Assembly: GCA_034189385.1 (NCBI GenBank)
Contig: JAXHVD010000001.1
Location: 224,001 to 288,000, forward strand
DNA: 64,000 nucleotides
Origin: Thermodesulfobacteriota bacterium
Lineage (GTDB): Bacteria > Desulfobacterota > Desulfobacteria > Desulfobacterales > C00003060
Direction of reading: 5' to 3'
The translations under genes and the position numbers were made by a program. The notes below the pieces were generated by a model, which ran no database searches, was not told the DNA's origin, and was given only the letters and a program-made list of their open reading frames with translations. Numbering within the stretch: the stretch's first letter is position 1; every line of letters starts with the position of its first letter. Of the stretch, positions 55,829-64,000 are shown piece after piece.

Positions 55829-56227
55829 TGATTTTCCCTTTGCCGTTGCTCCCTGTTAAATAGACCGTGCATGTATCGGGATAGGAAAGCAGCAGATGAA
55901 AATGAGATCTCTCTGCACTCTAAGGTTTCAGCGAAGTGGGCGGCGAAAAAGTCTATGAAATTATAAGATTAGATCCAACCGGACAGATGGCATTTTTTAT
56001 GCATGTTGTTTTTTGCGGAGCCTGCACCATTGCCGAGAGGCCGATAAAGCACGCACACTCAAGAGGTATTGCCCTGTCATACTAAACATGATATAATTAG
56101 ATAAAATTAATAGTCCATAGGTCAAACGATGTATTCTTTCAGTATGTTATAGCTAGTTTTAGGTATCTCAAGGCTCTTGCTTAGAATTCTTGATAGTATG
56201 ATTCACCAGAAAAGGCACGGAGGGCCC

Positions 56228-56956
56228 ATGACTGGCAGGCTCTTGAAGGTATCCGCTGTATTTATTCTCCTCATCATGCTTGTTGCGTGCTCCACTACAG
56301 AGTCTCTGGGTCCGCAAGGAATGGAAGGGGCCATGATGGCAGAGCCGCTTGGAGACTACCACCTCCGGCCTGGAGATGAAATCCAAATAAGATTTTTTTA
56401 CAATCCGGACTTAAACGAAACACTGATGGTCGGTCCTGATGGAAAGATATGCTTGCCGCTCCTTGATGAGATTCTTGTGGCAGGCTTGACGAGTTCTCAA
56501 GTGGATGACGTTCTTACAAAAGCCTATCTTAAGCACCTGGCAAATGTGAGTATCAATGTGACAGTGAGAGAGTACTCTGGACTGAAGGTGTACGTGGGAG
56601 GTGAAGTGGCCAGACCGGGTTTTTATTCCCTCAAAGGCAACATGTCCGTCCTGGAGGCGATCTTGGCCGCGAATGGGTTTAAGGAGACAGCGAAGCCTGA
56701 GAGTGTGGTCCTTGTGCGAAAAGGACCCGGAAATAGGCCTGTGGCCATGGCTGTGGACCTGAGGCCTGTCCTGTCTGGTGAGCAACTGGAGAACGACATC
56801 TATGTGATGCCATCGGATATTGTCTATGTGCCTAAGACCTTTGTCGCCAAGGCAGGCAAGTTTGTGGACCAGTATCTGAGAAGAGTGTTGTTTCTGGATG
56901 CCATCATGCAGGGCGCAGGCTGGGCACTTGGAGACGAGTGGGTAAGAAGCAACTGA
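56228..56956 (+). CDS. wza: Polysaccharide export lipoprotein (Wza-like)
   Basis: Lipobox LVAC, YHLRPGD, VGPDGKI, VGGEVARPG, DIVYVP. Confidence 0.88.
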   Translation: MTGRLLKVSAVFILLIMLVACSTTESLGPQGMEGAMMAEPLGDYHLRPGDEIQIRFFYNPDLNETLMVGPDGKICLPLLDEILVAGLTSSQVDDVLTKAYLKHLANVSINVTVREYSGLKVYVGGEVARPGFYSLKGNMSVLEAILAANGFKETAKPESVVLVRKGPGNRPVAMAVDLRPVLSGEQLENDIYVMPSDIVYVPKTFVAKAGKFVDQYLRRVLFLDAIMQGAGWALGDEWVRSN

Positions 56957-56972
56957 TGAAGGGTTTCGAATA

Positions 56973-59228
56973 ATGGATTCGGCATACAGACAAGAGAAAA
57001 GGAGGTCTCGCCGTGATGTGGCAGGCGTTCTTTTTCGGAGGAAATGGGCCATCCTAGCGGTTTTTCTGTCCACTGTTATACCAGTCACGGTGTACACTCT
57101 TTTGCAGGCCCCTATTTACCAAGCGGAGTCACGTATTTTGGTAAAGCCCGGCAGAGAGAACATTTATGTTTCACCTGTGGGAGCACCAGAGGGGGCTCAT
57201 CCACCCACGATCGTTCAGCGGGTAGCTGAGGTTATTAATTCAGAGATCGAGATTATCAGAAGCAGGGTTCTCATCCGCAGGGTTTTGGAAGAGGTAGAAA
57301 TTGCCAAGGCCTTCCCTCCTCGAGGGTCGAAAAACTCTGGGGTATCCCACGTCAGTGAATCGCTTCCCGGGAAGGTCTTAAAGAAAGTAGGCCTGGCAGG
57401 GGTTTTCCCTCCTGCCCTTTTGGAAGATTCCGTGGCAGCCCAGGAGGTTGAAGCGCCCCCTTTAGCCGTTGCCGTGCGCAGGGTGTTAGCCAACCTATCG
57501 GTGGAACGACTCAAGGGTACAGATGTTATCAGGGTTGGGTTCAAATCTCCTGACCCCGATATTCCAGCTCGGTTTCTCAATGTCCTTGTGGAACGTTATC
57601 TTGAGCGCCACCTTGAGGTGCACCAAAGCAAGAAATCAGCTGATTTCTTTAAGGCTCAATCAAGGAATCTGGCCCAGAAATTGAGGACCGCCACAAGCGA
57701 GCTGGCAGAATTCAACAAGAAATACGGTATCGTCAATTTTGAACAGAAGAAGGAACTCATCCTTAAGAAATACACCGAGATAGAAGCGGCAATCAAAGAC
57801 AATGAGGCCGAAATCCTGGGTAGCCGACGGAGGATAGAGACCTTGAGGGCAAAGCTTGCAAGAACGCCGGAACACGAGTATGCAGGCCAGCACGAGACGC
57901 CCGATTCTGCTGTCATCAATGATTTGAAGAAAAAACTCGCTGACTTGGAGTTGGAAAAGCTGCGGCTCATGCACAAATACAAGCCGGAGAATCCCAAGAT
58001 CACAAACGTGAATGAGTTGATGGCGAGGGCCAAGGAGATGTTAGAGGTCGAACAGGAGAAATTCCATGGCTCGGTCTCTACCGAAGTGAATGCGAACCAT
58101 CAAAAACTGGAATTTGAGCTGATGATGGAGGAAGTCCGCTTGGAGGCCCTTGAGAGCCAGCAATCGGAGCTGGGGACGCAGTTGATAGAATATGGGCGCA
58201 AGGTTGAGAGGCTGGGCTTGCTGGAGCCGGAACTGAGGGCTCGTGAGAGGACTGTCACGGCCCACGAACAGACTTACAGGCTCTATCTTACGAAGTTTGA
58301 AGAGAGCAGGGTATCCGATGCCATGGATGCCGCCAAGATGGTCAGTGTGACCGTTGTTGAACCAGCCCGGCCTCCTCTTGGCCCCCTTCCGGCTCACAAG
58401 GCATTGAACATTTTTGTGAGCATCTGCCTCGGGGGGCTGGCGGCTTTAGGCCTGGCTTTCTTGGTGGAATACTTTGACCAGAGCTTCAAGGTCCCAGAAG
58501 ATATTAGAGATGATCTTGGGTTGCCCGTACTCGGAGCTGTGAGGGATCTGCGACGCAAGGAAATGGAAGACGTGGAAGCCCTTGGTTATAGTTCCACGTC
58601 TCCCATTCACTATCAGACGATCAAGAGCGGCGTGGTGATGGGTGCTGAGGAAAAAGGGCTTAAACTATTGTGCATTTGCAGCCCTACGCCGCATGAAGGT
58701 TGTTCCACAATTGCCATCAATATTGCCGCATCCCTGGCAAAAGACAGGCGATGTCGAGTGGTCCTAGTGGATGCAAACTTTCGGAACCCTACGTTGCACG
58801 CCAGTTTCAACCTTCCAAACAAGACCGGATTCTCGGATATTGTCCAGGAGGGTACAGATGTTCGAGAGGCGGTCAATGAATCAGCCATTCCCGGTCTCTT
58901 TGTTATCACCAGCGGTGTCAGTATGAAGAACCCGATGGCTGTTCTTGAATCAGATAGAATGGAAGAGGTCATAAAGCTTCTAAAAGAAGAATTTGAATGG
59001 GTACTCTTTGATTGTGCGCCTACAAAGTATTTCCCTGACTCCTCTGTTCTGGCACGCCGGCTGGCCGGTGAGATGGGCGTTGTCTTGGTTGTTCGGGCAG
59101 AACACAAGCACGCGGACATAGCTGTCCAGGCCAAAGAAAGCATGGAGGAAGCAGGTGGAAAGGTTCTTGGCGCAGTGCTTAACCGACAGAGATATGTCAT
59201 TCCTGAAACAGTTTACAGAAGACTGTGA
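56973..59228 (+). CDS. wzc: Wzc/GumC-type co-polymerase with tyrosine-kinase-like domain
   Basis: Two TM helices, periplasmic coiled coil, VDANFRNP, FDCAP, GAVLN; Walker A reads HEGCST. Confidence 0.88.
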   Translation: MDSAYRQEKRRSRRDVAGVLFRRKWAILAVFLSTVIPVTVYTLLQAPIYQAESRILVKPGRENIYVSPVGAPEGAHPPTIVQRVAEVINSEIEIIRSRVLIRRVLEEVEIAKAFPPRGSKNSGVSHVSESLPGKVLKKVGLAGVFPPALLEDSVAAQEVEAPPLAVAVRRVLANLSVERLKGTDVIRVGFKSPDPDIPARFLNVLVERYLERHLEVHQSKKSADFFKAQSRNLAQKLRTATSELAEFNKKYGIVNFEQKKELILKKYTEIEAAIKDNEAEILGSRRRIETLRAKLARTPEHEYAGQHETPDSAVINDLKKKLADLELEKLRLMHKYKPENPKITNVNELMARAKEMLEVEQEKFHGSVSTEVNANHQKLEFELMMEEVRLEALESQQSELGTQLIEYGRKVERLGLLEPELRARERTVTAHEQTYRLYLTKFEESRVSDAMDAAKMVSVTVVEPARPPLGPLPAHKALNIFVSICLGGLAALGLAFLVEYFDQSFKVPEDIRDDLGLPVLGAVRDLRRKEMEDVEALGYSSTSPIHYQTIKSGVVMGAEEKGLKLLCICSPTPHEGCSTIAINIAASLAKDRRCRVVLVDANFRNPTLHASFNLPNKTGFSDIVQEGTDVREAVNESAIPGLFVITSGVSMKNPMAVLESDRMEEVIKLLKEEFEWVLFDCAPTKYFPDSSVLARRLAGEMGVVLVVRAEHKHADIAVQAKESMEEAGGKVLGAVLNRQRYVIPETVYRRL

Positions 59229-59597: not shown

Positions 59598-59914
59598 TTG
59601 ATTCATTCTGCCCAAAATAGTGGCATATTGTATGAAAAAAAATAGCCACAAGTGGAATTTGCTATTGTAATGTGTTATGGTTGTCTCCGATCTGTGACCC
59701 CCAACACGGATACGTTACATCTACTCCCACTCCGCAATCATCTCTGCCCGTTGGGTGGCGAGCTCCCGGATAGTGATAGCGACAATAATGCCCCAACGGC
59801 TTGACCTGGCACGTTTTTCCCCTTAACAAGAGGAAGTCCAGTGAGAGCGGCAGCGCTGGGTTCGGTTCAGGCAAGCTGGTGGTTATGGAGAATATAGAGA
59901 AAAGGAGTGTTCAT

Positions 59915-60523
59915 GTGAAAAGAAAATCATTTGCGGTAATCTTGAGTCTTATGTTCTGCCTTCTTCTGGCCAATCCTCTGCAAAGTTGTGTGGGACGGCT
60001 TCTCGTTGTTGCGATCAACAACTCCACAGATCAAGTTATCATGGGGCAAATGTTGTCTATCCTGATCAATGAGAGAACAGGGACCACCGTTGACATTATA
60101 CAAGCGGGTGACGTGAAGACGTGCCATGAGGCGGTACTCAAGGGAGAGGCTGACATTTATGTCAATTACATAGGAGATGGACTGGCTTTGACTGGGGGGG
60201 GCGGAGGAGATGACCCTCAAAAGGTCTACACATTGGTCAGCCAGTCCTTTATGGAGAGGTTCGGAATGGTCTGGCTAAAGCCCTTTGGTTTCAAGGGCCC
60301 GTTGACCATAAAGGGCGATTCTAACAAGAAAGGGAGTGGCAGCTTAGCTGCACCAGTCACGACCAAGGATGTATTGAGAAAGTTCCCTGTTCTGGACAGG
60401 CTGATAAACAAACTGGGAGGTAGGGTGGACAACAGTATCATGGAAGAACTGAAGAGAAAGGCAGAAGGCCAAGAAGTCAAAGAGGTCGTGAGGGAGTTTC
60501 TGAAGGCCCACAAGCTGATCTAG
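59915..60523 (+). CDS. OpuAC-like (glycine-betaine-binding-fold) exported protein
   Basis: RBS AAGGAG; signal peptide then CVGR; LINERTGT, DIYVNY, WLKPFGF. Confidence 0.75.
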   Translation: MKRKSFAVILSLMFCLLLANPLQSCVGRLLVVAINNSTDQVIMGQMLSILINERTGTTVDIIQAGDVKTCHEAVLKGEADIYVNYIGDGLALTGGGGGDDPQKVYTLVSQSFMERFGMVWLKPFGFKGPLTIKGDSNKKGSGSLAAPVTTKDVLRKFPVLDRLINKLGGRVDNSIMEELKRKAEGQEVKEVVREFLKAHKLI

Positions 60524-60544
60524 GGATGATCAAGGCCGGTGGCG

Positions 60545-60709
60545 ATCTGCAACAGGTCGGGCGGCCTTATTCGCCAAATCGCGAAAACTCTCCGCCTGAG
60601 GCGGATCAAAAGTTCACGATTTACCCACTATCGTGGGCCGCTCACAGCAGCCGAATGGGTGCCCCAAATAGCTCACAATGACCGTTCGGAAGAGTTATGC
60701 AAAGCTCTC
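60545..60709. mobile_element. MITE family B copy (left end uncertain)
   Basis: Right end GTTATGCAAAGCTCTC; internal modules shared with other copies. Confidence 0.6.
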
Positions 60710-60854
60710 ACCTTGTGTACTGGCTTCACGTATGTTATCTAGCGGGGCTCCACCCTTCAGACAGCAGGTGCAGTCTTTTCGTGAAGGGTCTGGGTCATGA
60801 GCAGAAGTGATGAATCTGAAATAAGCAGATGGAAAAGGGAGGAACCGCCATAAT

Positions 60855-61349
60855 ATGAATAAGTCATTCCTTGCGATTGTCTTGTGCCTGGTTTGGACGG
60901 GATCTGCCTGGAGCCACGGGGACATTTCGAAACTCCCTAGTTCAGTGCAGATTATGCAATATAGACTGGGCCTGTACATGAACCCGGACGATTTAGCTAT
61001 CCGCAATAAACTGGCCATGGCCCTTTACCGAACGAACCAGTTAAGGGAGGCGGAACAGGAACTAAAGCATATACTTGAAACGGATCCCGTGAATTTTGAC
61101 GCCCTTGACGGATTGGGGATTGTGCTTATTAAGATAGGTAGGGACGATGAGGCCCTGGAGCAATTGAAGAAGGCCGTGAAGATCAATGAACAGGATGTGA
61201 TGGTCCATGTCCATCTGTCCGTTGTCTATGACAAGATGAAACTGGTGAATCACGCCCAGAGTGAGCTGGAAAAAGCGAGGTCCCTTACAACGGCTCCGGC
61301 CGAGCTTGAGAACATAGAGAAAGAACGAACGCTGGTGAAAGGTCCTTAG
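60855..61349 (+). CDS. Exported TPR protein
   Basis: RBS GGAGG, signal peptide AWS-HG, about 3 TPRs. Confidence 0.82.
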   Translation: MNKSFLAIVLCLVWTGSAWSHGDISKLPSSVQIMQYRLGLYMNPDDLAIRNKLAMALYRTNQLREAEQELKHILETDPVNFDALDGLGIVLIKIGRDDEALEQLKKAVKINEQDVMVHVHLSVVYDKMKLVNHAQSELEKARSLTTAPAELENIEKERTLVKGP

Positions 61350-61409
61350 TGCGAAGTACTGGTTACGTAGTTTCAATCGGTGACAAGACTTTTAGAGGTT
61401 AAGAATTTT

Positions 61410-62327
61410 ATGAAAAACAGGTGTCTGTTTGGAGTACTATTTGTCGTTGTGTTCTTTTTTTCTGGGTGCCAAGGCAAGGAAGGCGGTGTCTCGGGCAAGG
61501 GAGACACACCCATCAGGATCGGCTACATGATTTGCAACAGTTTACAAGAGAGCATGGCAAGGTTTGAGCCAATAACGGCCTACCTGAGTGAGAAGGTGGG
61601 GCGGCGGTTTGAATCGACGTACGTCAATACTTATGAGTTTGAAGACTTGGTTCGGAAGAAGGAGGTGGATGTTACTCACACCAACTCCATCCTTCCGATC
61701 ATTTTCAAAAAGGAGTATGGACTTGAAATGTTGGCTACCGAGGTGCGAGGAAGGCACGGTCACAAAGACACGGGGGCCATCATTGCATTGAAGAAAAGCG
61801 GCATAAAGACTTTTGACGATATGCGCGGAAAGACCATGGTGTTCGGTCCTGCCCTGGCCCCCTTCGGCTATATGGCACAATATGCTCTGATGCTGGAGAA
61901 CGGATTTGATCCAGAGGAAGACCTCACGTATTACGCCATCCCTTGGGGCTCCTTTAAACATGAAAAGATCATTTATGGCGTGCTCTTTGGGGCCTACGAT
62001 TTGGGAACGGCCCCCCGTTTGGACTTGGACCACATGGCCCAAGAAGGGAAGATCAATTTGGACGATTTTAACATCATCGCCGAAACGATACCCATGCCCT
62101 ATTGAACAGTGGGCGTGATGCCCCACGTGGATCGTGGGCTGGCCAAAAAGATTAAGGAAGTTCTCATCAATCTGAAAAAGGACGAGACCGTTTTGGTGGA
62201 TGGCGAGGTGCGAAGAGTTGCTGAGAGTGCCTGGATAGAGGGATTTGTGGAGGCAATTGACAGCGAATACGACAGCATTCGAGAGCGGCTCAAGCGGTGC
62301 AACATGGCTCCTTATAGGCAGTATTGA
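61410..62327 (+). CDS. PhnD-like ABC substrate-binding lipoprotein; putative selenoprotein (TGA 62103-62105 = U232)
   Basis: Lipobox FSGC, PhnD-like motifs; ORFs 61380-62105 and 62109-62327 are in the same frame, separated only by PMPY-TGA-T; hairpin follows. Confidence 0.8.
62106..62139 (+). promoter_or_regulatory. Putative bacterial SECIS element
   Basis: CCCACG-TGGAT-CGTGGG stem-loop; G-containing loop starts 22 nt after the TGA. Confidence 0.65.
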
Positions 62328-62517
62328 TTCAGCCTAAGACCTAGCCTTTTGAAAAGACCCCAATGGCTCAATATCCTTTGCAAAACAGGGTTCTTGAAAG
62401 GGCTAACGTTTTACGATTCAGCCACTAACGGGTTTTGTACCATATGACAAACATGAGTTTGCACGGCGACCGTTGGCTGGTGGAGTGTCGGAACATATGT
62501 CAAATGGAGGTTCCAAA

Positions 62518-63510
62518 TTGAGGAATGACTTACTTCGTCTCGTTTTCATCAGAGCTGTTTTGCTTTCTTTTTTGGTGATGATTCTCTCCCTTTCCCTGAC
62601 AAGTGTCGCTTTAGGAAAGCCGCTGGTTATAGAAAAGGGTATTATCAAGTCCGATACGACCTGGCAGAACGAAGTGATCATCCGGGGGGACGTGGAGATA
62701 GCTGAGGGTGCCACATTGGTCATCATGCCGGGAACTGTCGTCAAGTTTGCAAAGATACAAGAGAATGGTCCCGCGAATCTTGAGATGGACAAGGCAAAAA
62801 ACTTCACTCGCGCTGAACTGATTATCAATGGAAGGATACTGGCCCAAGGCACGAAAGACAAAGTCGTCGTCTTCACTTCTGCGGAGAAATCTCCTAGCCT
62901 TGCTGATTGGGGGGCCATTAACATGTTGGAGAGCGACAATAACATCTTTGAGTATTGTGACATCAGCTACGGCCATACTGCAGTGCACGGACACGGTGCC
63001 CAGTTCACGGTCGCCAATTGTTATCTCCATGACAACGGCGTGGCGATCGGTTTCAAGAATGTGGATCAATGCAAACCCCAATGCGTCACCGTTCTCTATA
63101 ACCATATTACTCGAAATGGGGGGGGCGTATTGTGCAGCAGGGACTCGAGAGCTGTGGTGAGTCACAACCAAATTGATCACAACAAGTTCTTTGGCATATA
63201 TGGGAAAATGGGATCCCACCTGAGTATCAGGTATAATCACGCCGTTCATAATGGGAAAGGGGTTATTGTCTATGCCATGAAGGGCCTACAGCTTCGAGAA
63301 AACAACATTTCTGACAATGATGAGTATAACATCTCCCTGATGGAGGGTCAGATATGGAATGTAGATGCCCGCCATAATTGGTGGGGCACACCGGACACTA
63401 AGATCATCACAGCGTTGATCTGGGACAAGGATGAGGAGGTGACGCTGGGCACAGTGGACTTTTCTGGCTTTGCAGATTCGCCGATTGATGGCGCGGGACT
63501 TCCACGGTGA
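62518..63510 (+). CDS. Exported right-handed parallel beta-helix (NosD-like) protein
   Basis: RBS GGAGG before TTG, hydrophobic N-terminus, GTVVKF, WGAI, N-rich repeats, DARHNWWG. Confidence 0.82.
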   Translation: MRNDLLRLVFIRAVLLSFLVMILSLSLTSVALGKPLVIEKGIIKSDTTWQNEVIIRGDVEIAEGATLVIMPGTVVKFAKIQENGPANLEMDKAKNFTRAELIINGRILAQGTKDKVVVFTSAEKSPSLADWGAINMLESDNNIFEYCDISYGHTAVHGHGAQFTVANCYLHDNGVAIGFKNVDQCKPQCVTVLYNHITRNGGGVLCSRDSRAVVSHNQIDHNKFFGIYGKMGSHLSIRYNHAVHNGKGVIVYAMKGLQLRENNISDNDEYNISLMEGQIWNVDARHNWWGTPDTKIITALIWDKDEEVTLGTVDFSGFADSPIDGAGLPR

Positions 63511-63517
63511 TTAGATA

Positions 63518-64000
63518 GTGGACTGGTTAGACAGACTGAGCATAGCGGCCATAGCGGCCATAGCGGTGATCACCATAGGCATGTTGGCAAATCAGGCGCT
63601 CATGCAAAGAGGGGAAGAGAATCCTGGTGAGGAAGCCAAGGGAGGGAAGAGCTCCTACGCCTTGCAGATGGAGGAAGACAACAAGCTTTTCAAAGAAGTG
63701 CGTGCTTTTCAGGAACAAGGGCACTATCAGGAAGCCATGGCACAAGCTAAAGATATTATGAAAAGCTATCCAAAGAAATCTATGCCCTATGTTTATCTGG
63801 CACGGCTGCATTTCAAACAGGGAGAACTGAGAGAGACGATCATTAACTATCGACTGGCAGTGGAGATGGAGCCGGACTATGTGGATGAAAGAACACCACT
63901 TTTCATTGGAGAGGAGATCAAACAGATTGTCGAAGAAGGTAGAGAGAAATTTGGACGGGAAAAGGTGCTGAAGCCTGAAGACAGTCAGGTTAGGAACGCC
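63518..64000 (+). CDS. Membrane-anchored TPR protein, runs off the window (not in ORF track)
   Basis: Open frame from GTG 63518: MDWLDRLSIAAIAAIAVITIG..YVYLARLHFKQG..YRLAVEMEPDYVDERTPLFIG. Confidence 0.8.
   Translation, partial: MDWLDRLSIAAIAAIAVITIGMLANQALMQRGEENPGEEAKGGKSSYALQMEEDNKLFKEVRAFQEQGHYQEAMAQAKDIMKSYPKKSMPYVYLARLHFKQGELRETIINYRLAVEMEPDYVDERTPLFIGEEIKQIVEEGREKFGREKVLKPEDSQVRNA

What the first reader, a model, noticed from the sequence alone, without database searches (positions are those of the whole stretch)
61410..62327. Hidden selenoprotein: PhnD-like binding lipoprotein with in-frame UGA and SECIS-like hairpin
Seen: two ORFs in the same frame join across one TGA (..ETIPMPY-U-TVGVMPHVDRGLAKKIKEVLINL..) to give a 305-aa lipoprotein. 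The downstream part looks like the normal PhnD C-terminus. A 6-bp stem CCCACG/CGTGGG with a UGGAU loop lies 22 nt after the UGA. Established: bacterial SECIS elements sit just 3' of the UGA with a G in the apical loop. Inference: Sec232, perhaps acting with the Cys of GYMICNS, gives a binding-protein fold a redox or covalent-capture role. Sec-containing ABC binding proteins are known in some anaerobes, so the family may not be entirely new, but ordinary annotation would split this gene.
Basis: partly seen in the sequence, partly recalled or inferred. Interest (0 to 1): 0.85.

Follow-up and report, generated by a model that had tools for sequence, protein, structure and literature searches.

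The report
Selenocysteine binding lipoprotein beside YedE
Two neighbouring reading frames are really one lipoprotein gene whose internal UGA stands where every full-length relative has cysteine and is followed by a conserved hairpin, so it is predicted to encode selenocysteine, likely in a selenium/sulfur uptake route.

Summary
Window 61410-62327 (+) is one 305-codon gene for a PhnD-fold lipoprotein, interrupted by a single in-frame TGA at 62103-62105.

The selenocysteine reading is strongly supported:
- Cysteine stands at this column in 105 of 105 full-length homologues, and 15 further database proteins end exactly there.
- Ten contigs, 74-100% identical in protein, carry TGA, and all nine complete ones keep the 73-codon frame behind it. 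That frame is under purifying selection (dN/dS 0.03-0.16).
- The hairpin CCCACG-UGGAU-CGUGGG is intact in 8 of 8 distinct TGA forms and in 0 of 23 Cys forms.
- The genome has selA, selB, selD and tRNA-Sec.

No experiment shows Sec insertion.

By profile alignment, Sec232 and the invariant Cys42 take the places of the Tyr/Asp pair that caps the ligand pocket of PtxB. The phosphonate-binding Ser-Thr-Ser motif is absent, and no PhnE-type permease was found. The gene sits in a conserved cluster: OpuAC-like, TPR, this gene, NosD-like, TPR, YedE "selenium transporter", DUF3343.

Function is inferred: covalent capture of a selenium or sulfur species for YedE (about 40%).

This scan has met the cluster before on other DNA, in Cys forms. 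A word search of its notes found no Sec form.

I found no family-specific NCBIfam model and no entry in a 2026 selenoprotein catalogue. Verdict: a new member of a known kind.

The parts
61410..62327 (+). Single CDS of the PhnD-fold lipoprotein: 305 codons plus the terminal TGA, with one internal TGA
   Evidence: PF12974 covers residues 38-287 across the TGA. Full-length orthologues of 297-313 aa are 69-81% identical.
61410..61469 (+). Signal peptide with lipobox FSGC; Cys20 codon at 61467-61469
   Evidence: Read from the sequence. Cys20 is conserved in 118 of 119 homologues. No signal-peptide program was run.
61533..61535 (+). Codon of invariant Cys42 (GYMICNS), predicted partner of Sec232
   Evidence: Cys in 120 of 120 proteins and TGC/TGT in 140 of 140 motif matches in loci. 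It aligns with Asp16 of P. stutzeri PtxB, which hydrogen-bonds the capping Tyr (PMC5700983).
62103..62105 (+). In-frame TGA, codon 232, predicted to be read as selenocysteine
   Evidence: Cys in 105 of 105 full-length homologues, and 15 clusters end here. Motif matches across all loci fetched so far, copies included: TGA in 10, TGC/TGT in 53. It aligns with the capping Tyr203/Tyr208 of PtxB.
62112..62144 (+). SECIS-like hairpin: lower stem 62112-62114/62142-62144; upper stem 62122-62127/62133-62138; apical loop UGGAU 62128-62132
   Evidence: Upper stem is 6/6 in 8 of 8 distinct TGA forms and never 6/6 in 23 Cys forms. Five of its six codons are nucleotide-invariant in 7 TGA forms, against 17% of codons elsewhere, and this is the longest invariant run in the gene.
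59801..60523 (+). OpuAC-like orphan binding protein, upstream cluster member (start codon uncertain)
   Evidence: PF04069, E 1.2e-14. A homologue lies near the PhnD-like gene in 9 of 10 close and 30 of 43 distant loci.
60855..61349 (+). TPR protein of 164 aa, cluster member
   Evidence: TPR families. Conserved directly upstream in close loci.
62473..63510 (+). NosD-like / right-handed beta-helix protein, cluster member
   Evidence: PF13229 E 1.2e-14 and PF05048 E 2.4e-12. Conserved neighbour.
63518..64000 (+). Second TPR protein (runs off the window). The YedE gene follows just outside, at 64052-65125 in window numbering
   Evidence: The next gene scores 389 bits against TIGR04112 seleno_YedE (cut-off 200).

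Best explanation
Window 61410-62327 is one gene for a periplasmic PhnD-fold lipoprotein whose internal UGA (codon 232) is predicted to be decoded as selenocysteine by SelB, guided by the hairpin 16-35 nt downstream. Shown by calls or the sequence: the single frame; the Cys/TGA correspondence; TGA and hairpin kept together across diverged copies; purifying selection behind the TGA; the Sec machinery in the genome. Not shown: actual selenium insertion. I put this core claim at about 0.9. Inferred by homology: Sec232 and invariant Cys42 sit side by side on the lobe-1 cap of the ligand pocket. That is where PtxB has the Tyr that touches the ligand and the Asp that holds that Tyr. The usual Ser-Thr-Ser oxyanion site is replaced by an invariant Ala-Pro-Phe. 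Most likely function (about 0.4): the selenol/thiol pair would capture a selenium or sulfur species covalently in the periplasm. It would then pass that species to the YedE channel encoded 1.7 kb downstream, without an ABC pump. Sec in place of Cys would make the capturing residue more reactive. The Sec form is confined to a few lineages of one genus-level clade, and its relatives use Cys.
For: Gene and fold:
- One frame and one Pfam domain cross the TGA.
- AlphaFold2 model: mean pLDDT 88.3, pTM 0.82.
- Best Foldseek matches are PtxB, ArrX, HtxB, AioX and PhnD, TM 0.7-0.88 normalised to the target.

Sec/Cys pair:
- Of the 120 best homologues, 105 are full length and all have Cys in PMPYCT. The other 15 end at ...PMPY.
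- DNA: TGA in 10 loci (own locus, L090-L093, L096, L097, L103, L105, L113). TGC/TGT in 53 motif matches.
- All 9 TGA loci that are complete keep exactly 73 codons to the stop, as the Cys forms do.

Selection:
- dN/dS behind the TGA between TGA forms is 0.03-0.16, against 0.055-0.115 in front. Synonymous divergence between most pairs reaches about 1-2.6.

SECIS:
- Stem 6/6, about -10 kcal/mol locally, in 8 of 8 TGA forms. Cys forms reach 5/6 at most, and only 4 of 23 do so.
- The hairpin codons are the longest nucleotide-invariant run in the TGA forms.
- All TGA forms encode HVDRGLA, the residues the 3' arm requires.
- The apical loop UGGAU has G at positions 2-3, like the CGGGA loop behind the TGA of this genome's selD.

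Machinery: selB 370 bits, selA 612.6, selD 388.8 (itself with one TGA), tRNA-Sec 72.2. All are above their cut-offs.

Phylogeny: TGA forms fall in three places of the tree, and well-supported branches force at least 2 changes.

Pocket:
- The profile alignment to 5o2j puts C42 on D16 and C232 on Y203. Alignments to 5jvb and 5lv1 also put C232 on the capping Tyr.
- PMC5700983 (passages) says this Tyr packs on the ligand and is held by D16/D22.
- S124-T125-S126 aligns with A150-P151-F152, which are invariant here.

Context:
- The neighbour scores 389 bits on TIGR04112, and a PF11823 Se/S-carrier protein follows.
- A YedE homologue is in 10 of 10 close and 19 of 43 distant loci with at least 3.5 kb of flank (loci not de-duplicated).
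- No PhnE over cut-off in the genome (best 38 bits against 216.7; genome 90% complete).

Paralogues at 27-28% identity lack both cysteines.
Against: - No proteomic or 75Se evidence, and no RNA run was listed.
- The hairpin never varies among the TGA forms, so there is no compensatory covariation.
- Folding the window's own 81 nt is no better than shuffles (z = -0.13).
- The 60-nt minimum free energies do not separate TGA from Cys forms (-17.4 against -17.6 kcal/mol).
- Two outgroup Cys forms (L040, L041) form other local hairpins of -8 to -9 kcal/mol.
- No Rfam family matched.
- The spacing rule for bacterial SECIS (loop 16-37 nt after UGA) is recalled, not taken from a call.
- The C42-to-D16 match lies at the edge of a 17-20% identity alignment with moderate posterior support. 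I could not measure the Cys42-Sec232 distance in the model.
- The ligand is unknown. YedE's role in selenium transport is itself only a comparative-genomics prediction in bacteria (PMC5322559).
- Only 19 of 43 distant loci hold YedE nearby.
- The complex prediction with YedE could not be run.
Confidence: 0.88

Rival explanations
1. Pseudogene or split gene. The TGA would be a true stop. The cell would make a 231-residue truncated binding protein, with or without a separate 72-residue peptide from the GTG at 62109.
For: Public gene calls do end there: 15 clusters of 223-272 aa, one of them named by NCBI as a complete substrate-binding protein. A GTG follows 3 nt after the TGA.
Against: The TGA is kept in copies only 74-80% identical, with the 73-codon frame intact in 9 of 9 complete loci and under dN/dS of 0.03-0.16. 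The break is exactly at an invariant Cys. A hairpin is conserved only in the TGA forms. The Pfam domain and the predicted fold need both parts.
Confidence: 0.04
2. Sequencing or assembly error in the window. The real codon would be TGC or TGT.
For: A single base separates TGA from TGC/TGT. The five orthologues found among the 36 other species genomes held for this genus all have Cys.
Against: Ten loci from several assemblies carry TGA. No other letter is listed at 62103-62105 in contigs of two runs from different studies, including a second strain variant.
Confidence: 0.01
3. The UGA is read through, but not as Sec. This could be near-cognate suppression (Trp, Cys, Arg or Gly) or a reassigned code.
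For: No direct evidence for selenium in the product. Hairpins after stop codons can also promote ordinary read-through.
Against: TGA ends this gene and many homologues at the conserved C-terminus, so it is not reassigned. The column is strictly Cys. The full Sec machinery and other TGA-containing selenoprotein genes (selD, two FdhA-like) are present.
Confidence: 0.04
4. It is a real selenoprotein, but its cargo is not selenium or sulfur for YedE. The Cys42/Sec232 pair would bind a soft metal or metalloid (arsenite, mercury, copper). Alternatively it would act as a redox switch, or the protein would signal like AioX, ArrX or TtrS.
For: AioX, of the same fold, links arsenite to a pocket Cys (PMC5908839). 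ArrX and AioX are among the best structural matches. The sensor domain of TtrS matches weakly (NF040750, E 6.9e-9). A 2026 review says most Sec-bearing transporter parts are tied to metal or metalloid resistance (PMC13188914). The NosD-like neighbour belongs to a family named for copper binding.
Against: No histidine kinase, arsenic or mercury gene appears in the 20 kb examined. The conserved partners are YedE (TIGR04112), a DUF3343 Se/S carrier and further genes downstream. The AioX Cys106 column was not mapped onto this protein, so that parallel is one of fold only.
Confidence: 0.3

Closest known systems
SaoB (NF040727) and SaoX (NF040735), ABC substrate-binding selenoproteins (Haft & Gwadz 2023, known to me only through the table and text of PMC13188914)
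   Same: Extracytoplasmic solute-binding proteins with a predicted Sec. They show that Sec in a binding protein is an established kind.
   Different: No match of this protein to either model at E <= 0.01. Their Sec motifs, CUxxT and UxP, differ from PYUT. They belong to ABC systems with a permease (SaoP), and none is found here. The original paper is not held, so their fold was not compared.
PtxB / HtxB / PhnD phosphite, hypophosphite and phosphonate binding proteins (5o2j, 5jvb, 5lv1, 5me4, 3p7i)
   Same: Same type II binding-protein fold (TM 0.7-0.88) and Pfam family PF12974. His184 aligns with the pocket His155.
   Different: The Ser-Thr-Ser oxyanion motif is replaced by invariant Ala-Pro-Phe. 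The capping Tyr/Asp pair is replaced by Sec/Cys. The protein scores below the TIGR03431 and TIGR01098 cut-offs. No PhnE-type permease was found.
AioX / ArrX arsenic-oxyanion sensing binding proteins (6eu7, 6xl2)
   Same: Same fold. AioX binds its metalloid through a link to a pocket cysteine (PMC5908839), which is a precedent for covalent capture in this fold.
   Different: The AioX cysteine (Cys106) corresponds to Gly65 of PhnD according to that paper, so it is a different pocket position. AioX works with a histidine kinase, and none is nearby here.
SoxYZ - SoxT1A route of Hyphomicrobium denitrificans (PMC11582611, passages)
   Same: A periplasmic protein carries sulfur on a conserved cysteine, and a YeeE/YedE-like membrane protein brings sulfur into the cytoplasm. 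This is the logic proposed here.
   Different: SoxYZ has an unrelated fold. Direct hand-over from carrier to channel is not shown there either.
TIGR04112 seleno_YedE module with DUF3343 (PMC5322559) and TIGR04553 'putative selenate ABC transporter substrate-binding protein'
   Same: The neighbour is a TIGR04112 member (389 bits), followed by a PF11823 protein. TIGR04553 is another PhnD-like family that curators tie to selenium.
   Different: The described YedE module has no periplasmic binding protein. This protein scores 51.7 bits against TIGR04553, whose cut-off is 250, so it is not a member.

Membership tests
Bacterial selenoprotein gene (SelB/SECIS-dependent UGA recoding) | In-frame UGA aligned with Cys in homologues | tested here: met
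   105 of 105 full-length homologues have Cys. Motif matches in loci: 53 TGC/TGT against 10 TGA.
Bacterial selenoprotein gene (SelB/SECIS-dependent UGA recoding) | Stem-loop just 3' of the UGA with a G in the apical loop | tested here: met
   Hairpin at 62122-62138 with loop UGGAU, kept in 8 of 8 TGA forms and 0 of 23 Cys forms. [quoted passage not shown] The 16-37 nt spacing rule is recalled. There is no covariation, because the hairpin is invariant.
Bacterial selenoprotein gene (SelB/SECIS-dependent UGA recoding) | selA, selB, selC and selD in the genome | tested here: met
   All four are over their curated cut-offs.
Bacterial selenoprotein gene (SelB/SECIS-dependent UGA recoding) | Coding sequence behind the UGA is conserved and under purifying selection | tested here: met
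   73 codons kept in 9 of 9 complete TGA loci. dN/dS 0.03-0.16.
Bacterial selenoprotein gene (SelB/SECIS-dependent UGA recoding) | Selenium demonstrated in the protein | not testable with these tools
   This needs 75Se labelling or mass spectrometry. No RNA run was listed either.
PhnD / PF12974 phosphonate-type binding proteins | Domain and fold | tested here: met
   PF12974 at 151 bits against a cut-off of 27. Foldseek matches to PtxB, PhnD and others.
PhnD / PF12974 phosphonate-type binding proteins | Equivalog score (TIGR03431 PhnD; TIGR01098 subfamily) | tested here: not met
   66.7 bits against 261.1, and 63.1 against 112.05.
PhnD / PF12974 phosphonate-type binding proteins | Ser-Thr-Ser plus His oxyanion-binding motif | tested here: not met
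   S124-T125-S126 of PtxB aligns with invariant A150-P151-F152. Only the His is kept, as H184.
PhnD / PF12974 phosphonate-type binding proteins | Cognate PhnC/PhnE ABC transporter | tested here: not met
   No PhnE over cut-off in the 90% complete genome (best 38.1 bits against 216.7). No ABC gene in the 20 kb around the gene. PhnC was not searched.
SaoB / SaoX substrate-binding selenoproteins | Match to NF040727 or NF040735, with Sec motif CUxxT or UxP | tested here: not met
   Neither model is among the five NCBIfam hits at E <= 0.01. The motif here is PYUT.
TIGR04553 putative selenate ABC substrate-binding protein | Score over the curated cut-off | tested here: not met
   51.7 bits against 250.
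Conserved YedE envelope cluster (OpuAC-like, TPR, PhnD-like, NosD-like, TPR, YedE) | Same genes in the same order around the PhnD-like gene | tested here: met
   Pfam and NCBIfam hits of the neighbours. tblastn finds the neighbours in related loci of Desulfobacterota and Nitrospirota.

The most novel reading that the evidence does not exclude
This Sec-bearing lipoprotein is the periplasmic receptor of a binding-protein-dependent, ATPase-free YedE import route. It captures a selenium species through a Se-Se or S-Se bond at a Cys42/Sec232 gate and hands it to the channel. That would make it the first identified receptor of a dedicated bacterial selenium uptake system, and a selenoprotein that feeds selenoprotein synthesis.
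Probability: 0.25. Interest if true: 0.85.

Novelty: new member of a known kind. Interest (0 to 1): 0.62.

Why it matters
A Sec/Cys pair marks the chemically active residue of a protein. Here it falls on the pocket cap of an orphan binding protein that is conserved next to YedE.

A 2026 review states that no specific high-affinity selenium transport system has been identified in prokaryotes (PMC13188914). This finding gives that question a concrete target: one residue pair, one protein and one neighbouring channel to test.

It also corrects annotation. At least 15 public protein clusters of this family are truncated at the UGA.

The family appears to add to the list of selenoprotein families. 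It has no specific NCBIfam model and no entry in that review's catalogue.

Tried and rejected
- Rfam scan of 60500-63500 at E <= 10 gave only four chance-level matches and no SECIS family.
- Whole-segment folding energies do not separate TGA from Cys forms. Only the specific hairpin does.
- SECIS elements of this genome's selD and two FdhA-like genes were folded for comparison. They differ in shape and share little beyond G's in the loop, so they carry little weight.
- Sequencing runs: no RNA holder was listed. DNA contigs were laid.
- Complex prediction:
  - A request with a natural Cys-form orthologue and its own YedE from L030 met a full queue.
  - One retry came too early and was not sent.
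  - The last retry again met a full queue, with the instruction not to try again. Nothing was folded.
- The search of protein representatives was busy twice and was never run.
- Literature:
  - Full-text searches run: selenoprotein / selenocysteine / PhnD; selenoprotein + 'phosphonate ABC transporter'; selenoprotein + PhnD; selenocysteine + phosphonate + substrate-binding protein + UGA.
  - They found nothing on a PhnD-like selenoprotein. The one paper that matched, is an unrelated Bifidobacterium study.
  - One search had a malformed term.
  - Haft & Gwadz 2023 and Haft & Tolstoy 2025 are not held and could list this family. The absence of a specific NCBIfam model argues against that.
  - No paper's supplements were read.
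- No Sec was found at the Cys42 codon in any locus (140 of 140 TGC/TGT).

Full report
**Observation**

The window holds an ORF from 61380 (ATG at 61410) to the TGA at 62103-62105. A second ORF, 62109-62327, lies in the same frame. Read through, the two give a 305-residue protein with a signal peptide and lipobox (..FFFSGC, Cys20). It ends at a second TGA, 62325-62327.

One Pfam domain, PF12974 (phosphonate-type periplasmic binding protein), covers residues 38-287 at E 4.9e-44, so it crosses the internal TGA.

A short lower stem, 62112-62114 with 62142-62144, extends it. The stem begins 16 nt after the UGA, and the loop begins 22 nt after it.

**Is the TGA a selenocysteine codon?**

*Homologues.* A search of 5.8 billion proteins gave 443 hits, of which the best 120 were listed.
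- 105 of the 120 are full length, and all 105 have Cys at the aligned column, in an invariant PMPYCT motif.
- The other 15 (223-272 aa, 72-98% identical over the part they cover) end exactly at ...PMPY.

*DNA of relatives*.
- The aligned codon is TGA in 10 loci: the window's own copy, L090-L093, L096, L097, L103, L105 and L113. It is TGC or TGT in 53 (duplicates included).
- All 9 TGA loci that reach the end of the gene keep exactly 73 codons to the stop, as the Cys forms do. L113 is cut by its contig end.

*Selection.* Between TGA forms from different clades, synonymous sites are near saturation (dS about 0.7-2.6). The 73 codons behind the TGA nevertheless show dN/dS of 0.03-0.16, against 0.055-0.115 in front of it. 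A dead or truncated gene would not behave so.

*Sequencing error.* This is excluded by the independent contigs. In addition, no other letter is listed at 62103-62105 in contigs of runs from two studies, one of which carries a second strain variant.

*The hairpin.*
- By itself the window's hairpin is unremarkable (z = -0.13 for 81 nt). The 60-nt folding energies do not separate TGA from Cys forms.
- The specific stem does separate them. It is 6 of 6 pairs, about -10 kcal/mol locally, in 8 of 8 distinct TGA forms.
- It is never complete in 23 Cys forms. Four close Cys forms keep 5 of 6 pairs, which look like remnants.
- Two outgroup Cys forms fold into other local hairpins of -8 to -9 kcal/mol.
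- In the 7 full-length TGA forms only 17% of codons elsewhere are nucleotide-invariant. Five of the six hairpin codons are, and they form the longest invariant run in the gene.
- Every TGA form encodes HVDRGLA, the residues that the 3' arm requires. Cys forms vary there.
- Because the hairpin never varies, there is no compensatory covariation.

*Sec machinery and other selenoprotein genes.*
- The genome holds selB (370 bits), selA (612.6), selD (388.8, itself with one TGA) and tRNA-Sec (72.2), all above their cut-offs.
- It also holds two FdhA-like genes with an in-frame TGA.
- The selD hairpin also has a 5-nt loop with G at positions 2-3.

*Other points.*
- TGA is an ordinary stop at the end of this gene and of many homologues, so the code is not reassigned.
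- On a maximum-likelihood tree of 31 rows the TGA forms fall in three places, and well-supported branches force at least two changes.
- The same hairpin in all three places, and the remnants in Cys forms, suggest one gain of Sec within this clade followed by reversions. That is inference only.
- Among the 37 species genomes of the family, 6 hold the orthologue and only the window's has TGA.

**What the protein is**

The AlphaFold2 model is confident (mean pLDDT 88.3, pTM 0.82). It matches PtxB, ArrX, HtxB, AioX and PhnD.

The profile alignment to solved chains gives four correspondences:
- Residue 232 falls on Tyr203 of P. stutzeri PtxB. It falls on the equivalent Tyr in the two other PtxB chains aligned, which is Tyr208 in the T. 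erythraeum protein.
- Cys42 falls on Asp16 of P. stutzeri PtxB.
- The ligand-binding Ser124-Thr125-Ser126 aligns with Ala150-Pro151-Phe152, which are invariant here.
- His155 aligns with His184.

According to PMC5700983 (passages), this Tyr caps the pocket and packs directly on the ligand. The Asp, on a loop that latches over the pocket, hydrogen-bonds it.

So the phosphonate site is gone, and a Cys/Sec pair likely sits at the cap. The Cys42 match lies at the edge of a low-identity alignment, and I could not measure the distance in the model.

Cys42 is invariant (120 of 120) and is never TGA (140 of 140 codons). Paralogues at 27-28% identity have neither cysteine.

The protein falls below the cut-offs of TIGR03431, TIGR01098 and TIGR04553. 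No PhnE-type permease was found in the genome.

**Context**

The gene lies in a co-oriented string: OpuAC-like binding protein, TPR, this gene, NosD-like beta-helix, TPR, then a protein scoring 389 bits on TIGR04112 'YedE family putative selenium transporter'. A PF11823 Se/S-carrier-like protein and a kinase-fold protein follow.

Homologues of these neighbours surround the gene in relatives down to about 45% identity, in Desulfobacterota and Nitrospirota MAGs. YedE is in 10 of 10 close and 19 of 43 distant loci with enough flank (not de-duplicated, three distant paralogue loci left out).

Earlier notes of this scan describe the same cluster in other genomes (e1-2603821, e1-3136708) and the operon downstream in this genome (e1-7687759). 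I confirmed the cluster independently. None of those notes, and no word search of the notes, mentions a Sec form.

**Mechanism proposed**

- Shown: one gene, with TGA at an invariant Cys, a co-conserved hairpin, and the machinery present.
- Predicted (about 0.9): SelB-dependent insertion of Sec232.
- Inferred (about 0.4): the Cys42/Sec232 pair captures a selenium or sulfur species covalently in the periplasm and passes it to YedE.

Two precedents support the inferred step. AioX links arsenite to a pocket cysteine in the same fold (PMC5908839). SoxYZ carries sulfur on a cysteine ahead of a YeeE-like importer (PMC11582611).

The main functional rival (about 0.3) is binding of a soft metal or metalloid, or a sensing role.

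**Novelty**

Sec-bearing binding proteins are known: SaoB, SaoX and BtuF in the table of PMC13188914. This protein matches neither Sao model.

The review's text and table hold no 'phosphonate', PF12974 or TIGR01098 entry. NCBIfam has no specific model for the family. Four full-text searches found nothing.

Two relevant papers are not held, so prior description cannot be fully excluded.

It is a new member of a known kind. Its main interest is that it pins a reactive residue onto the periplasmic side of the YedE route.

Noticed in passing
L024, L102, L114, L037 (Cys-form orthologues), 20-36 nt after the Cys codon: Four close Cys forms keep 5 of 6 pairs of the hairpin (local -3.4 to -6.6 kcal/mol). 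They look like SECIS remnants and would fit Sec-to-Cys reversions within the clade.
   Followed up: partly
window 62325-62327: The gene's real stop is also TGA, and the frame stays open for about 40 more codons behind it. Homologues end at the same conserved ...APYR(Q/K)Y with TAA, TAG or TGA, so this one is a true stop.
   Followed up: yes
window 56177-59228 (L167 4177-7228): Directly upstream of the cluster lie polysaccharide export genes: Poly_export/SLBB and a Wzz/tyrosine-autokinase of 751 aa with weak XrtA/PEP-CTERM-type EpsF/EpsG matches. A Wzz-like homologue also lies upstream in several TGA-form loci (L091, L096, L097, L105).
   Followed up: no
G000:C29:10803-11726, G000:C23:30207-32282 and G000:C34:67410-68171 (outside the window): selD and two FdhA-like genes of this genome each carry one in-frame TGA at the expected Sec site (SGU in selD, RL/RI-U-HS in FdhA). 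This confirms that the organism uses Sec.
   Followed up: partly
G000:C1:222828-222911 and 223094-223184 (about 1 kb before the window's start): Two sub-threshold tRNA-Sec model matches (41.6 and 38.3 bits against a gathering score of 47). They are probably long-arm tRNAs such as Ser or Leu. The real tRNA-Sec is on contig C31.
   Followed up: no
L167 12052-13125 (window numbering 64052-65125) and alignment A2: The YedE neighbours have invariant Cys36, Cys39, Cys213 and Cys284, with Cys108 nearly invariant, across 32 sequences. This fits a cysteine relay through the channel.
   Followed up: no
L058-L074 and similar loci (Desulfobulbaceae-type): In these more distant relatives the PhnD-like gene sits beside an amino-acid dehydrogenase and fumarate-lyase-family genes rather than directly before YedE. 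In the window's genome the same genes lie 6-9 kb downstream, which suggests one larger rearranged cluster.
   Followed up: partly
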